From NCBI RefSeq assembly GCF_003019035.1, contig NZ_CP027447.1: a stretch of DNA of 64,000 bases, one strand, 5' to 3'. Positions 4,751-58,377 of the stretch are shown one piece after another; positions within the stretch are counted from its first letter, which is position 1, and each line of letters opens with the position of its first letter. This stretch comes from Escherichia coli. GTDB taxonomy: Bacteria > Pseudomonadota > Gammaproteobacteria > Enterobacterales > Enterobacteriaceae. The notes beneath the pieces are model-generated. The model was not told where the DNA came from and did no database searches. It was given only the letters and a program-made list of their open reading frames with translations. The translations under genes and the position numbers were made by a program.

Positions 4751-4778
4751 AAAATGCGTAAAAAAGCACCTTTTCAGG
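4751..4778 (+). terminator. Intrinsic terminator after cysK
   Basis: aaaaagcacc-ttttca-ggtgcttttt hairpin followed by T-run, 14 bp after the cysK stop. Confidence 0.6.
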
Positions 4779-5120
4779 TGCTTTTTTGTGGCCTGCTTCA
4801 AACTTTCGCCCCTCCTGGCATTGATTCAGCCTGTCGGAACTGGTATTTAACCAGACTAATTATTTTGATGCGCGAAATTAATCGTTACAGGAAAAGCCAA
4901 AGCTGAATCGATTTTATGATTTGGTTCAATTCTTCCTTTAGCGGCATAATGTTTAATGACGTACGAAACGTCAGCGGTCAACACCCGCCAGCAATGGACT
5001 GTATTGCGCTCTTCGTGCGTCGCGTCTGTTAAAAACTGGCGCTAACAATACAGGCTAAAGTCGAACCGCCAGGCTAGACTTTAGTTCCACAACACTAAAC
5101 CTATAAGTTGGGGAAATACA

Positions 5121-7714: not shown

Positions 7715-7745
7715 AAAAATGGCGCCCATCGGCGCCATTTTTTTA
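7715..7745. terminator. Bidirectional intrinsic terminator between convergent crr and pdxK
   Basis: aaaaatggcgcc-catc-ggcgccattttt perfect hairpin flanked by A-run upstream and T-run downstream; overlaps the pdxK stop. Confidence 0.65.
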
Positions 7746-39035: not shown

Positions 39036-39400
39036 GAGTCGCCGCCTGTGAAAAACTTTCGTGTATCGTGACAATTTTTCGTCAGAGTAAATAACAAAAT
39101 TCGGCAAGCGCGTTTAAAAGGTGAGGTAGATCACTAAGAATGGAGAGATATTTTATGTTAAGAAAAAAAACATACATTGTATGAATATAAACGGGAACCA
39201 ATAAGTTTTGTTTATCATATGTACTACAACATCTTTTAATAATCCCTCGAATCACCCGACGTTGTATTTTTAATAATTAGCAGAATACATATTTAATGTA
39301 CTGTTGTATTCTGAAAAATATTATTATCTTCACCCCATTTAAAATACATCTTACGCGATGATTTTATTCAGGAAATAAATAAAATGGATGGATCCCTGGA
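39036..39400. promoter_or_regulatory. AT-rich divergent promoter region (eut operon promoter upstream of eutS; promoter of the plus-strand glycosyltransferase cassette)
   Basis: 365-bp strongly AT-rich spacer between the divergent eutS and glycosyltransferase starts; the regulatory role is inferred, no site was mapped. Confidence 0.5.
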
Positions 39401-40471
39401 ATGAAAATTCACTACCTTGTCACCACCCTCGAAGCGGGAGGCGCTGAATTTGCGATTCCTGATATTGTGACTACTCTGCAAGACCTTGGTCATGAGGTGA
39501 AAATTTATGTCTGTGAACCCCGCGATATGGGAGCAGCGCCTCGTCTGGAAGCCGCTGGATTATCCTGGTGTTTATTATCAAATCGGCGGCGTTCTGAACC
39601 CATGCTTGTAGCTGCTTATCTGGCAAAAATCATTCACGACAAACCCGATCTCATCTGGACTTCGTTAAGTTGGGGGACTCGTATTGGGCAATGGGTCGGC
39701 CGGCTTATGGGCATTCCTGTTATCAGTTTTAAACATAGCGCCAGCGTAAAACCAGCGACCTGGCGTATGCGCAACATGTCTCGTTTATGGATAGGAGATT
39801 CTGAAACCGTAGCTCAATACCTGCATGAAACCATGTTGATCCCGAAGCAACAAGTGCTGTGCTGGCCCTTTTTTCAGGCGAATCCGCAAGCTGCCCAAGC
39901 GCAAAACTGGGACGGGAAATCAGTTTTACAATTAGGCTCTGTTGGACGCCTGCATGAAGTTAAAAATTACGCTGGATTAATTACAGCACTCGCTTCGTTT
40001 GTAGATAAAAACCCGCAATTGCGCTCGCGAATCCGATTAACCATTCTCGGTGAAGGGCCTGAACAGGAAGCATTGCAAAAAACCATAACGCAACACGCGT
40101 TGGAGGATGTGGTTTGTTTAGCGGGTTTTTCTGCGGATGTCGAAAATTTTCTTGCCGGATTACATGTCTACATCCAGACCTCCCGCTACGAAGGGATGTG
40201 CCTCGCTGCACACGAAGCCATGAATGCAGGGCTTGCAATCATCACGACTCCTGTAGGCGAACTTAAAGAATCGGTAATAGATGGTCATACTGGATATACG
40301 CTTAATGGCGAGCTAACGCCAGCGCTGGAGGGTGTGCTTAACCGTATTTTAAGTGAACCCGAAGAATTAGAACGCTATGGGCAAAATGTGCGGCAGTATG
40401 TATTAGCGAAGTTCAGCCATGAAAATTTTGTCCAGTCTGCAATCAACATCGTCAATAGACTTATTCACTGA
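39401..40471 (+). CDS. Glycosyltransferase family 1 (GT-B fold, GT4-like) protein; accessory gene
   Basis: 356-aa ORF; C-terminal region RYEGMCLAAHEAMNAGLAIITTPVGELKESVIDGHTGY resembles the retaining GT1/GT4 sugar-donor binding motif; to my recollection K-12 has no gene between eutS and maeB. Confidence 0.7.
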   Translation: MKIHYLVTTLEAGGAEFAIPDIVTTLQDLGHEVKIYVCEPRDMGAAPRLEAAGLSWCLLSNRRRSEPMLVAAYLAKIIHDKPDLIWTSLSWGTRIGQWVGRLMGIPVISFKHSASVKPATWRMRNMSRLWIGDSETVAQYLHETMLIPKQQVLCWPFFQANPQAAQAQNWDGKSVLQLGSVGRLHEVKNYAGLITALASFVDKNPQLRSRIRLTILGEGPEQEALQKTITQHALEDVVCLAGFSADVENFLAGLHVYIQTSRYEGMCLAAHEAMNAGLAIITTPVGELKESVIDGHTGYTLNGELTPALEGVLNRILSEPEELERYGQNVRQYVLAKFSHENFVQSAINIVNRLIH

Positions 40472-40484
40472 ACAAGGCAGAAAA

Positions 40485-41387
40485 ATGAATTGCTATACCA
40501 CCGATCTTTGGCAGATAGGCATTGTTCAGGCCCCCATACAGCACATTGTTGCTTCTGGCAGTTTGGATGGCTTCAGGATTAAATGGATTACCCCGGATAA
40601 ATCACTCACTTTTCTTGCCGATCCTTTCGGTCTGTGGAAAAAAGGGGTTCTCTATCTTTTCGCGGAATCCTACGATTATCGGACTCGTCGTGGCGATATT
40701 ATCGCTTATAAGCTCAATGCTGACCTGGACGTCATTGAGCAACGAACTGTGCTACAAGAACCCTGGCATCTTTCTTATCCTTTTGTGTTTGAAGCCGATA
40801 ACGAAATCTGGATGTTACCTGAAGGATATAAATCAGGTACGCTAACGTTGTACCGCGCTATAGAGTTTCCCTGGCGATGGGAAAAGGTGCCAGATTTTTC
40901 ATTCCCTTGCGCTGCCATTGATGCCACCCCCTTTTACGCACAAGGAAAATGGTGGATGTTTTATACTCCCCCACTACCAAAGGCAGCCAGGACGGATACG
41001 TTAATGCTCGCTCATGCCCCCCATTTTATGGGGCCATGGGAAAACGTCCTGCAAACTGCCGCGCACAGGAATAAAAGCGGCGCGCGTATGGGCGGAACAC
41101 CATTTGATCATGATGGGCAAATTTTCTTACCAACACAAGATTGCAGCCGAACCTACGGTGGCGCATTGCAGATGCTGACACTAGACCCACAACGTTTATT
41201 AACTCCAGAATTTGCTGCCTCTGTGCGCCTGGAAGTGCCTGCAAGTGCCGCGCCTTTTATTGCTGGCATGCATACGCTTTCTGGCGTTGGCGACGTAACA
41301 TTCATTGATGCCAAGCGACACCTTAAAGGTTCGCCTCAGCGATTATGGGTGGATTTGCAGCGGCGGATACAGAAGTGGATCAGCTAA
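40485..41387 (+). CDS. Hypothetical protein, possibly beta-propeller glycoside-hydrolase-like; co-transcribed with the upstream glycosyltransferase
   Basis: ORF track 40419..41387 trimmed to ATG 40485 (MNCYTTDLWQIGIV...), 13 bp after the GT stop with aagg RBS; DPFG..W and aromatic-rich repeats (WHLSYPFVFEADNEIWMLPEGY, KWWMFYTPP); family assignment unverified. Confidence 0.55.
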   Translation: MNCYTTDLWQIGIVQAPIQHIVASGSLDGFRIKWITPDKSLTFLADPFGLWKKGVLYLFAESYDYRTRRGDIIAYKLNADLDVIEQRTVLQEPWHLSYPFVFEADNEIWMLPEGYKSGTLTLYRAIEFPWRWEKVPDFSFPCAAIDATPFYAQGKWWMFYTPPLPKAARTDTLMLAHAPHFMGPWENVLQTAAHRNKSGARMGGTPFDHDGQIFLPTQDCSRTYGGALQMLTLDPQRLLTPEFAASVRLEVPASAAPFIAGMHTLSGVGDVTFIDAKRHLKGSPQRLWVDLQRRIQKWIS

Positions 41388-41389
41388 AC

Positions 41390-41417
41390 CGCTTACCCTG
41401 AATATTCAGGGTAAGCG
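41390..41417. terminator. Perfect 28-bp palindrome between the accessory cassette and maeB (bidirectional terminator candidate)
   Basis: cgcttaccctgaata/tattcagggtaagcg: 13-bp arms with a 2-nt loop, between convergent ORF 40485..41387(+) and maeB(-). Confidence 0.55.
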
Positions 41418-41434
41418 TGAGAGTTAAGAATGAA

Positions 41435-43714
41435 TTACAGCGGTTGGGTTTGCGCTTCAACCACAGCCAGCGCCACCATGTTGACGATACGACGTACCGA
41501 TGCGATCGGCGTTAACACGTGAACCGGTTTCGCCACGCCCATCAGCACCGGACCGACAGTCACACCTTCCGAGCTGGAAACGCGCAGTAAGTTGTAACTA
41601 ATGCGGGCAGCTTCCATGTTCGGCATCACCAGAATATTAGCGGAACCTTTCAAAGGGCTGTCCGGCATACGGTCGTTGCGAATCGCTTCCACCAGCGCTG
41701 CATCGCCGTGCATTTCACCATCAATCATCAGTTCTGGCGCACGTTCCCTGACCAGTTCCAGCGCCTGACGCATTTTGCTCGACGACGGGCAGTCAGAAGA
41801 ACCAAAGTTGGAGTGCGACAACAGAGCCACACGCGGTTCAATACCAAAACGACGAACAGTTTCTGCCGCCATCAAGGTGATCTCCGCCAGCTCTTCTGCA
41901 TCAGGCTCATCATTGACGTAGGTATCGGCAATAAAGGTGTTACCACTCGGCAACAGCAGCGCGTTCATTGCACCTGCGGTGTGAACGCCATCGCGATAAC
42001 CAAAGACATTTTTCACCACGCTAAAGTGTTCATGATAATCGCCCACCGTACCGCAAATCATTGCATCGGCTTCGCCACGCTGAACCATGATCGCGCCGAT
42101 CACTGTCGGGTTACTGATCAGCGCACGCTGCGCCTGCTCCTGAGTGACACCGCGACGCTTCATGATCTGGAAGTATTCGGTCCAGTACTCTTTAAAGCGC
42201 GGATCGGATTCGTTATTGACGATCTCAAAATCAACACCCGCTTTGATCTGCAAGCCCAGTTTCTGAATGCGCATTTCGATCACGTTCGGACGACCAATAA
42301 GAATCGGTTTCGCCAGTCCCAGCGTTACCAGTTCCTGAGTGGCATGCAGAACGCGCGCCTCTTCCCCTTCCGGCAGAACGACGCGCTTCGGCGCTTTGCG
42401 AGCCTGGGAGAAAATCGGCTTCATAAACAGGTTGGTTTTGTAAACGAACTCCGTCAGCTTGTCGATGTAGACGTCGAAATCAGCAATCGGACGCGTCGCC
42501 ACGCCAGACTCCATCGCCGCTTTCGCCACCGCTGGAGCGATCTTAACGATCAAGCGCGGATCAAACGGTTTTGGAATGATGTATTCCGGACCAAAGCTCA
42601 GATCCTGATCGCCATACGCTGAAGCCACCACTTCACTCTGTTCCGCATGGGCCAGTTCTGCAATCGCGCGTACTGCCGCCAGTTTCATCTCTTCGTTGAT
42701 GGCGGTTGCGCCAACGTCCAGCGCGCCACGGAAGATAAACGGGAAGCAAAGGACGTTGTTCACCTGGTTCGGGTAGTCGGAACGGCCGGTACAGATGATG
42801 GCATCCGGACGCACTTCTTTCGCCAGCGGCGGCAGAATTTCCGGTTCCGGATTCGCCAGCGCCAGGATCATTGGTGCCCGAGCCATTTTCTTCACCATTT
42901 CCTGGGTCAGCACTTTCGGGCCGGAACAACCCAGGAAAATATCCGCGCCTTCAATCACATCATCGAGGGTACGTTTGCCGTCATCCACCACCGCATATGC
43001 GGCTTTGGTTTCCGCCATATTTGGCTCACGGCCCTGATAGATAACGCCTTTTGAATCACAAACCACGATGTTATGTTTTTGCAGCCCCAGCGCCACCAGC
43101 AGGTTCATACAGGCGATTGCTGCTGCACCCGCGCCGGAAACCACCATCCGCACGTCGGAGATGTTTTTCTCCACCACGCGCAATCCGTTGAGGATGGCGG
43201 CAGTGCTGATAATTGCCGTGCCGTGCTGATCGTCGTGGAATACTGGAATATTCATCCGCTCGCGCAGTTTCTGTTCAATATAGAAACATTCTGGCGCTTT
43301 AATGTCTTCGAGGTTGATGCCGCCGAAGGTCGGTTCAAGCGCGGCGACGACTTCAATAAATTTGTCCGGGTCGAGTTCATCAACTTCAATGTCAAATACA
43401 TCAATCCCGGCGAATTTCTTAAACAGAACGCCCTTGCCTTCCATCACCGGTTTGCCTGCCAGCGCGCCAATGTTGCCTAACCCCAGCACCGCCGTACCGT
43501 TAGAGATCACCGCCACCAGGTTACCACGCGCGGTATATTTGTAGGCTTTTAACGGGTCTTTTTCGATTTCAAGACAAGGTGCGGCAACGCCTGGTGAGTA
43601 GGCCAGCGCCAGATCGCGCTGCGTTGCCAGAGGCTTGGTTGGAGAAACCTGGATTTTCCCTGGAACTGGAAATTCATGGAAATCAAGTGCACTTTGTTTT
43701 AACTGGTCATCCAT
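41435..43714 (-). CDS. maeB: NADP-dependent malic enzyme (with C-terminal PTA-like domain)
   Basis: 759-aa [47 protein letters not shown]... Confidence 0.95.
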
Positions 43715-58307: not shown

Positions 58308-58314
58308 GCTAAGT

Positions 58315-58377
58315 GGCCGGATAAGGCGTTAACGCCGCATCCGGCCATGATGCCTGATACAGTCTTATCAGACCTAC
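58315..58377. repeat. REP element cluster (BIME-like) between ypfN and ypfH
   Basis: ggccggataaggcgttaacgccgcatccggcc followed by tgcctgatacagtcttatcagacctac. Confidence 0.65.

What the first reader, a model, noticed from the sequence alone, without database searches (positions are those of the whole stretch)
41390..41417. Perfect 28-bp palindrome at the junction of the accessory cassette and maeB
The sequence cgcttaccctgaata/tattcagggtaagcg has 13-bp perfect arms and a 2-nt loop, exactly between the convergent unknown ORF and maeB. It probably serves as a bidirectional terminator. A perfect palindrome of this length at the edge of putative accessory DNA could also mark the insertion boundary.
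Basis: seen in the sequence. Interest (0 to 1): 0.3.

Follow-up and report, generated by a model that had tools for sequence, protein, structure and literature searches.

The report
Native maeB transcription terminator hairpin
The perfect 28-bp palindrome is real, but it is the ordinary hairpin that ends the maeB messenger RNA in nearly all E. coli, and it was there before the two-gene glycosyltransferase cassette arrived next to it.

Summary
The palindrome at 41390-41417 is confirmed. It has 14-nt perfect arms and no spacer, and it is the longest perfect palindrome in the window. It is not cassette-borne. The same element lies 17 nt downstream of the maeB stop codon in 5409 of 5426 complete E. 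coli genomes, whereas the GT4 + GINT1-like cassette occurs in only 91. Cassette-free strains, including K-12, carry it unchanged or with one outer-base change. The cassette/backbone junction is at 41380|41381, 9 nt to the left, so hairpin and tail were kept intact. Published full-length RNA sequencing of K-12 (PMC6131387) places the maeB 3' end at 2576049/50. That is 4-5 nt past the palindrome, in its short U-run. Arm differences in other Escherichia lineages are G·U wobbles on the maeB-sense strand and C·A mismatches on the other strand. No U-tract follows the hairpin on the + strand, so the sequence does not support a bidirectional role. The U-run on the maeB side is short (GUUUAGCU), so the element falls below the canonical consensus. 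A read-through maeB-eutS-eutP transcript is on record.

The parts
41390..41417 (-). Perfect 28-bp palindrome. On the maeB-sense (-) strand it forms an RNA hairpin with a 12-bp stem and a 4-nt loop.
   Evidence: Conserved downstream of maeB in 5409/5426 E. coli genomes and in other Escherichia species.
41381..41389 (-). Terminator tail on the maeB-sense strand, G-UUU-A-G-C-U-G. The predicted maeB mRNA 3' end is at 41386/41385. This stretch is backbone sequence shared with cassette-free strains, and it also supplies the TAA stop (41385-41387) of the + strand GINT1-like ORF.
   Evidence: K-12 TTS 2576049/50 mapped through L095. Shared sequence resumes at 41381.
41418..41434 (-). 17-nt spacer between the maeB stop codon and the hairpin. 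It is variable, and in K-12 it is a U8 run.
41435..43714 (-). maeB, the NADP-dependent malic enzyme (759 aa), whose transcript the hairpin ends.
   Evidence: (malic, Malic_M, PTA_PTB domains) and RefSeq annotation of the identical locus.
39159..41380 (+). Cassette-specific DNA, 2222 bp. It replaces 115 bp of the eutS-maeB intergenic region of cassette-free strains. It holds the GT4 glycosyltransferase (39401-40471) and the GINT1_N-family protein (40419 or 40485 to 41387). It is not part of the terminator and is listed as context.
   Evidence: Junctions from pairwise alignment. Pfam hits. Present in 91/5426 genomes.

Best explanation
The palindrome is the native 3'-end hairpin (terminator) of maeB. 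It is specific to the genus Escherichia and is read on the - strand. RNA polymerase transcribing maeB synthesises the 12-bp stem-loop 17 nt after the stop codon, and the transcript ends 4-5 nt later in the short run G-UUU-A. In cassette-free strains this separates maeB from the co-directional eut operon (eutS lies about 290 bp downstream). In this strain the 2.2-kb glycosyltransferase cassette replaced the middle of that intergenic region and left hairpin plus tail untouched. The position of the 3' end, the ancestry and the strand bias of variation are shown. It is inferred, not shown, that the end arises by intrinsic (Rho-independent) termination rather than by trimming back to the hairpin.
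For: (1) Ancestry. The 60-nt region with the palindrome is present in 5409/5426 complete E. coli genomes. The cassette is in 91, always chromosomal and single-copy (89 with full flanks). Cassette-free L002, L091 and L092 have the identical 28-mer, and K-12 differs only at the outermost base. (2) Published 3' ends. SMRT-Cappable-seq of MG1655 lists maeB (b2463) TTS at 2576050 in M9 (11 reads at the TTS, 0 passing through). In rich medium it lists 2576049 (37 and 21 reads at the TTS, 3-4 passing through; PMC6131387). In MG1655 the palindrome is 2576054-2576081 and the maeB stop low end is 2576098. The ends therefore fall on the third U or the A of AGUUUA. The hairpin centre lies 18 nt from the TTS, inside the 13-22 nt range seen for RegulonDB-known terminators in the same table. 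(3) Strand-specific conservation. Across 9 distinct variants, 4 stem positions vary only as G·U on the maeB-sense strand, where 97.2% of cells are paired. On the antisense strand these become C·A, and 93.5% of cells are paired. In all 4 arm-asymmetric variants the sense hairpin is more stable than the antisense one: -15.7/-13.0, -16.5/-13.4, -14.2/-6.8 and -17.5/-14.9 kcal/mol. (4) Sister species keep a U-tract on the maeB side: E. whittamii AUUUUUAUAUU, Escherichia sp. MOD1 GUUUUAUU. (5) Other Enterobacteriaceae have an unrelated but canonical terminator at the same place (GGCGCGGG-loop-CCCGCGC-TTTTTTAT), so a terminator is the expected occupant of this site. (6) The cassette replacement spared exactly the hairpin plus 9 nt of tail.
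Against: The U-run in E. coli is only 3 U (GUUUAGCU). The consensus scan does not call a terminator here on either strand. No compensatory double changes exist; there are only wobbles, few independent events, and one terminal-pair change (K-12) that goes the other way. A maeB-eutS-eutP read-through unit is listed in the same dataset, and 12 M9 reads end within 50 bp downstream, so termination is not tight. The 3'-end data come from K-12, not from a cassette-bearing strain. Long-read 3' ends cannot tell termination from exonucleolytic trimming.
Confidence: 0.85

Rival explanations
1. 3'-end protective hairpin rather than the termination site itself. maeB transcription would stop further downstream (Rho-dependent or heterogeneous), and 3' exonucleases would trim back to the stable stem, giving the observed end.
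For: The U-run is short and fails the consensus scan. In M9, 12 reads end within 50 bp downstream of the TTS against 11 at it. Trimming of Rho-dependent transcripts back to stem-loops is an established pattern in E. coli (Dar & Sorek 2018, PMC6061677, title seen; the rest is from my own knowledge).
Against: The ends fall in the U-run 4-5 nt past the stem, as for intrinsic terminators, at a hairpin-centre distance typical of known terminators. Sister species retain longer U-tracts. The sequence downstream in cassette-free strains is AT-rich, not C-rich as rut sites are.
Confidence: 0.25
2. True bidirectional terminator. The same palindrome would also end the + strand transcript of the glycosyltransferase cassette, 2 nt after its stop codon.
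For: The palindrome is perfect, so the + strand RNA hairpin is equally stable (-19.7 kcal/mol). It sits between convergent genes. Head-on RNAP collisions at convergent gene pairs are reported to promote bidirectional termination (bioRxiv 10.1101/2022.10.23.513370, title and abstract seen).
Against: On the + strand the hairpin is followed by UGAGAGUUAAGAAUGAAUU, with no U-run, and no terminator is called. Variation shows no selection for + strand pairing. The diverged cassette allele (L085/L086) has a C·A mismatch on the + strand. The hairpin long predates any + strand gene here. The window's clear bidirectional terminators have A6/T6 flanks.
Confidence: 0.12
3. Insertion-boundary or recombination site. 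The palindrome would be an end of the accessory element, or the site recognised when the cassette was inserted.
For: The backbone/cassette junction (41380|41381) lies only 9 nt from it. In one genome an IS10-like element used the outer 9 bp of the right arm (GGGTAAGCG) as its duplicated target.
Against: The palindrome is present in about 5300 genomes without the cassette. There is no second copy at the left junction or anywhere else in the window. The cassette encodes no recombinase or transposase. The event is a replacement of 115 bp by 2222 bp without target duplication. With an intergenic region of about 290 bp, any junction is bound to lie near the hairpin.
Confidence: 0.03
4. DNA-level operator. 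A dimeric regulator would bind the symmetric 28-bp site to control maeB or eut.
For: The dyad symmetry is perfect and long.
Against: The element lies at the 3' end of maeB. In this strain it is 2.3 kb from the eut promoter, with no apparent cost to the 91 genomes concerned. The centre of the dyad varies freely, including a 1-nt insertion, as a loop would. Arm changes are strand-biased wobbles, which a DNA-binding site would not favour. It occurs at one site per genome.
Confidence: 0.03

Closest known systems
Rho-independent (intrinsic) transcription terminators of E. coli
   Same: A stable stem-loop lies just after a stop codon. The RNA 3' end falls in a U-run a few nt past the stem. The hairpin-centre-to-TTS distance (18 nt) matches that of known terminators in the same dataset. 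It occupies the position where relatives have a canonical terminator.
   Different: The U-run is only 3 U (GUUUAGCU) in most E. coli. The stem is unusually long (12 bp), only about 50% G+C, and fully Watson-Crick. Read-through into eutS-eutP is recorded. Rho independence has not been tested.
Bidirectional intrinsic terminators between convergent genes (for example window 4760-4787 and 7715-7742)
   Same: It is a symmetric hairpin placed between convergent genes in this strain.
   Different: It lacks the 5' A-tract / 3' T-tract arrangement that gives both strands a U-tail. The convergent arrangement is recent and rare (91/5426 genomes).
REP/BIME palindromic units (mRNA 3'-end stabilisers)
   Same: It is an extragenic palindrome at a gene's 3' end that can protect upstream mRNA.
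   Different: It is single-copy per genome and has no REP consensus. A REP-like repeat for comparison lies at 58314-58347.
Stem-loops that define 3' ends of Rho-terminated transcripts after exonuclease trimming
   Same: It is a stable hairpin with a weak U-tail at a mapped 3' end.
   Different: The end lies inside the U-run rather than flush with the stem. Rho dependence is unknown.

Membership tests
Intrinsic (Rho-independent) terminator | Stable stem-loop shortly downstream of the stop codon on the sense strand | tested here: met
   12-bp stem with a 4-nt loop, -18.3 kcal/mol, 17 nt after the maeB stop.
Intrinsic (Rho-independent) terminator | U-tract (typically at least 5 of 8 nt U) immediately 3' of the stem | tested here: not met
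   The window has GUUUAGCU (4 of 8, 3 consecutive), and the scan calls no terminator. The feature is met in E. whittamii (AUUUUUAU) and nearly met in Escherichia sp. MOD1, L085 and L094. The window element is therefore sub-canonical. I say it works like an intrinsic terminator, and I do not file it as a strict consensus member.
Intrinsic (Rho-independent) terminator | RNA 3' ends map in the U-run a few nt after the stem | tested here: met
   Published K-12 TTS 2576049/50 lie 4-5 nt after the palindrome 2576054-2576081. The K-12 tail is identical to the window's. This was not measured in a cassette-bearing strain.
Intrinsic (Rho-independent) terminator | Termination by RNAP alone, insensitive to Rho inhibition | not testable with these tools
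   No bicyclomycin or in vitro data were found.
Bidirectional intrinsic terminator | U-tract after the hairpin on both strands (A-tract / hairpin / T-tract) | tested here: not met
   The + strand tail is TGAGAGTTAAGAATG. Contrast 4760-4787 and 7715-7742.
Bidirectional intrinsic terminator | 3' ends of both convergent transcripts at the hairpin | not testable with these tools
   No transcript data exist for cassette-bearing strains.
REP/BIME repeat | Many dispersed copies per genome with the REP consensus | tested here: not met
   It occurs at one locus per genome. The median of 2 'places' is the palindrome matching itself on both strands. It is unique in the window at up to 3 mismatches.
Mobile-element end / attachment site | Present only together with the inserted DNA, with a partner copy at the other end and a recombinase | tested here: not met
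   It is present in 5409 genomes against 91 with the cassette. There is no partner copy. The cassette genes are GT4 and GINT1_N only.
Rfam RNA families | Match to any curated covariance model | tested here: not met
   The only hit is a chance match at E = 3.6 elsewhere in the stretch.

The most novel reading that the evidence does not exclude
In E. coli the maeB terminator kept, and even perfected, its hairpin but lost most of its U-tract. It may therefore be a deliberately leaky gate that lets some maeB transcription run into eutS-eutP; a maeB-eutS-eutP unit is on record. In the about 2% of strains with the oppositely oriented glycosyltransferase cassette, this coupling would be broken and replaced by convergent transcription across the hairpin, changing basal eut and/or maeB expression.
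Probability: 0.12. Interest if true: 0.3.

Novelty: already known. Interest (0 to 1): 0.08.

Why it matters
It matters little beyond correct annotation. The work shows that the palindrome is backbone sequence, not part of the accessory DNA. It fixes the cassette limits at 39159-41380. It gives the likely maeB mRNA 3' end at 41385-41386 on the - strand. A minor point of interest is that the cassette's second ORF borrows its stop codon from the terminator tail. The convergent transcripts would therefore overlap across the hairpin.

Tried and rejected
- Rfam scan of 41200-41600 at E up to 10 found nothing relevant.
- I looked for maeB or b2463 in the supplements of several E. coli 3'-end papers. 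Adams 2021 and TERMITe 2025 had no occurrence.
- For Dar & Sorek 2018, PMC9122600, Conway 2014 and PMC8848933, no supplementary files are held.
- Ju 2019 is not held. One search was rejected for syntax.
- Only Yan 2018 gave data.
- Text searches for maeB with terminator, eutS or bicyclomycin gave nothing on this element.
- The plasmid search for the cassette gave only a 100-bp match at 77% identity in an Acetobacter plasmid, so there is no sign of a plasmid origin.
- I rejected a REP element, an operator, an attachment site and a transposon end, for the reasons given under the rivals and the membership test.
- I did not use a numerical terminator score such as d'Aubenton-Carafa, because I could only recall its coefficients from memory.

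Full report
**Observation**

Window 41390-41417 is CGCTTACCCTGAAT|ATTCAGGGTAAGCG, a perfect palindrome with 14-nt arms and no spacer. The palindrome is unique in the window at up to 3 mismatches, with 0 of 100 shuffles matching. It is the longest perfect palindrome among the short-range inverted repeats of the 64 kb. By simple arithmetic, chance predicts about 2e-4 such palindromes. As RNA, either strand forms a 12-bp stem with a 4-nt loop (z = -3.8 and -5.3 against shuffles). It lies 2 nt after the stop of the + strand ORF 40419-41387 and 17 nt after the stop of maeB (41435-43714, - strand).

**Surroundings**

The genes to the left are eutD/pta, eutT, eutQ, eutP and eutS, all on the - strand. 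Next come two + strand genes:
- a GT4 glycosyltransferase (39401-40471; Glycos_transf_1, E = 1e-29);
- a GINT1_N-family protein (40419-41387; E = 4e-35). RefSeq names it 'glucosamine inositolphosphorylceramide transferase family protein' in an identical locus.

To the right are maeB and then talA.

**Is the palindrome ancestral or cassette-borne?**

It is ancestral. The evidence is as follows.
- A 3.2-kb query across the locus matches 5423 of 5426 complete E. coli genomes, but only 89 match over its full length. The others lack about 2.2 kb.
- The cassette alone is found in 91 genomes, once each and always chromosomal. It is not on plasmids.
- A 60-nt query holding the palindrome plus flanks is found in 5409 of 5426 genomes.
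- The cassette-free strains CU37RT-2, SMS-3-5 and an O157 strain have the identical 28-mer. K-12 (MC1061, MG1655) differs only in the outermost base, T for C on the + strand.

Pairwise alignment puts the junctions at 39158|39159 and 41380|41381. That is, 2222 bp replace 115 bp of the cassette-free intergenic region. There is no target duplication, and no partner repeat exists. The hairpin and 9 nt of its tail are backbone sequence. The TAA stop of the GINT1-like ORF (41385-41387) lies inside that backbone tail.

**What occupies this position in relatives?**

I read the sequence downstream of maeB in 80 Enterobacteriaceae loci. Citrobacter, Klebsiella, Salmonella and others carry an unrelated, textbook intrinsic terminator there (for example GGCGCGGG-TTTCT-CCCGCGC-TTTTTTAT). 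Other genera have REP-like repeats or the next gene. Only Escherichia has the CGCTTACCC...GGGTAAGCG hairpin:
- Escherichia sp. MOD1-EC7003: CGCTTACTCTGGATTATTCGGGGTAAGCG followed by GTTTTATTG;
- E. whittamii: CGCTTACCCTGAGTAATTCGGGGTAAGCG followed by ATTTTTATA;
- a divergent 'E. coli' representative (SCPM-O-B-8794): the perfect 28-mer.

A terminator is therefore the expected occupant of this site. The Escherichia hairpin is a lineage-specific replacement of the canonical one.

**Which strand is functional?**

Nine distinct variants were aligned. The results favour the maeB-sense strand.
- Read on the maeB-sense strand, 97.2% of stem cells pair. Four stem positions vary only by G·U wobble.
- Read on the other strand, those cells become C·A mismatches, and 93.5% of cells pair.
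- In every variant with unequal arms, the sense hairpin is the more stable one.
- The loop varies freely, including a 1-nt insertion.
- The variants include a diverged cassette allele (strains MSB1_4I and GF131). There the GT4 gene is 89-97% identical and the second gene has decayed to a remnant. Its hairpin has a U·G pair on the maeB-sense strand and a C·A mismatch on the cassette-sense strand.

This evidence is modest. There are about five independent internal events, no double compensatory change, and one terminal-pair change in K-12 that goes the other way. It is nevertheless consistent.

**Experimental 3' ends**

Supplementary Data 1 of Yan et al. 2018 (SMRT-Cappable-seq, PMC6131387) lists transcription termination sites for b2463 (maeB) in MG1655.

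| Medium | TTS coordinate | Reads from the TSS | Reads ending at the TTS | Reads passing through | Reads ending within 50 bp downstream |
|---|---|---|---|---|---|
| M9 | 2576050 | 52 | 11 | 0 | 12 |
| Rich (first TSS) | 2576049 | 62 | 37 | 3 | 2 |
| Rich (second TSS) | 2576049 | 62 | 21 | 4 | 7 |

All three are typed 'novelTTS'. In MG1655 the maeB CDS ends at 2576098 and the palindrome spans 2576054-2576081. The ends therefore fall on the third U or the following A of the tail A-G-U-U-U-A, 4-5 nt after the palindrome. The hairpin centre is 18 nt from the TTS. RegulonDB-known terminators in the same table show 13-22 nt. Transferred to the window, the maeB 3' end is predicted at 41386/41385 on the - strand. 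The same dataset lists a read-through unit b2463|b2462|b2461 (maeB-eutS-eutP), so termination is not complete.

**Mechanism**

The best-supported reading is that this is the maeB terminator or 3'-end hairpin. It works like an intrinsic terminator on the - strand. In cassette-free strains it insulates the co-directional eut operon from maeB transcription.

One weakness is the U-run, which is only three U (GUUUAGCU). The consensus scan does not call a terminator on either strand. I therefore do not file it as a canonical member of that family. I also keep as a rival (0.25) that polymerase stops further on and exonucleases trim back to the stem.

The bidirectional reading is not supported by sequence:
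- the + strand tail is UGAGAGUUAAGAAUG;
- the stem shows no + strand conservation;
- the two evident bidirectional terminators of this window (4760-4787, 7715-7742) have A- and T-tracts on both sides.

It cannot be excluded without transcript data from a cassette-bearing strain. The boundary, attachment-site and operator readings are contradicted by distribution, copy number, gene content and the pattern of variation.

**Comparison and novelty**

This is an ordinary 3'-end element. Its 3' end was already recorded in a public genome-wide dataset in 2018, although it has never been discussed individually. Nothing matches in Rfam. Interest is low.

The most novel reading left open is a deliberately leaky maeB-to-eut gate that the oppositely oriented cassette disrupts. 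I give it about 0.12 probability and modest interest.

Noticed in passing
window 39159-41380: A two-gene accessory cassette (GT4 glycosyltransferase plus a GINT1_N-family protein) lies between eutS and maeB. It is present in only 91 of 5426 complete E. coli genomes, always at this locus. The closest homologues of the second protein are 62-66% identical, in Rouxiella, Shimwellia, Pluralibacter, Rosenbergiella and Acetobacter. Its function is unknown.
   Followed up: partly
L085 4272-4870 and L086 4273-4871 (E. coli MSB1_4I, GF131): A diverged allele of the same cassette exists. The GT4 gene is intact (89% and 97.5% identity), but the GINT1-like gene has decayed to an unannotated remnant of about 600 bp. 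This implies a long history of the cassette at this locus, or import from another Escherichia lineage.
   Followed up: partly
window 40419-40487: The GINT1-like ORF as listed (322 aa) overlaps the GT4 gene by 53 nt. An in-frame ATG at 40485, preceded by AAGG and lying 14 nt after the GT4 stop, would give 300 aa. That is the length of nearly all homologues and of the 100%-identical database cluster P0001.
   Followed up: partly
L096 3528-3545 and 4866-4876 (E. coli LCP30S3_I3): An IS10-like element (ISVsa5) is inserted between the hairpin and maeB. Its 9-bp target duplication, GGGTAAGCG, is the outer part of the palindrome's right arm. It matches 5 of the 6 specified positions of the IS10 target consensus NGCTNAGCN (consensus quoted from my own knowledge).
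   Followed up: yes
L004 (strain 19AR0656); H8 (U13A); L085; H61: IS1 copies recur in this small region. One replaces eutS and the hairpin up to the maeB stop. One lies between eutS and maeB, one between eutP and eutS, and one inside the cassette.
   Followed up: no
window 4760-4787 and 7715-7742: Two perfect hairpins with 12-nt arms are flanked by A- and T-runs (AAAAAAGCACCT/AGGTGCTTTTTT and AAAAATGGCGCC/GGCGCCATTTTT). They look like classical bidirectional terminators.
   Followed up: no
window 58314-58347: A REP-like imperfect palindrome, TGGCCGGATAAGGCGTTAAC/GTTAACGCCGCATCCGGCCA.
   Followed up: no
K-12 NC_000913.3 2575470-2578531: SMRT-Cappable-seq lists a 'novel' maeB-eutS-eutP transcript from the maeB TSS at 2578531. 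This indicates read-through of the maeB terminator into the eut operon.
   Followed up: partly
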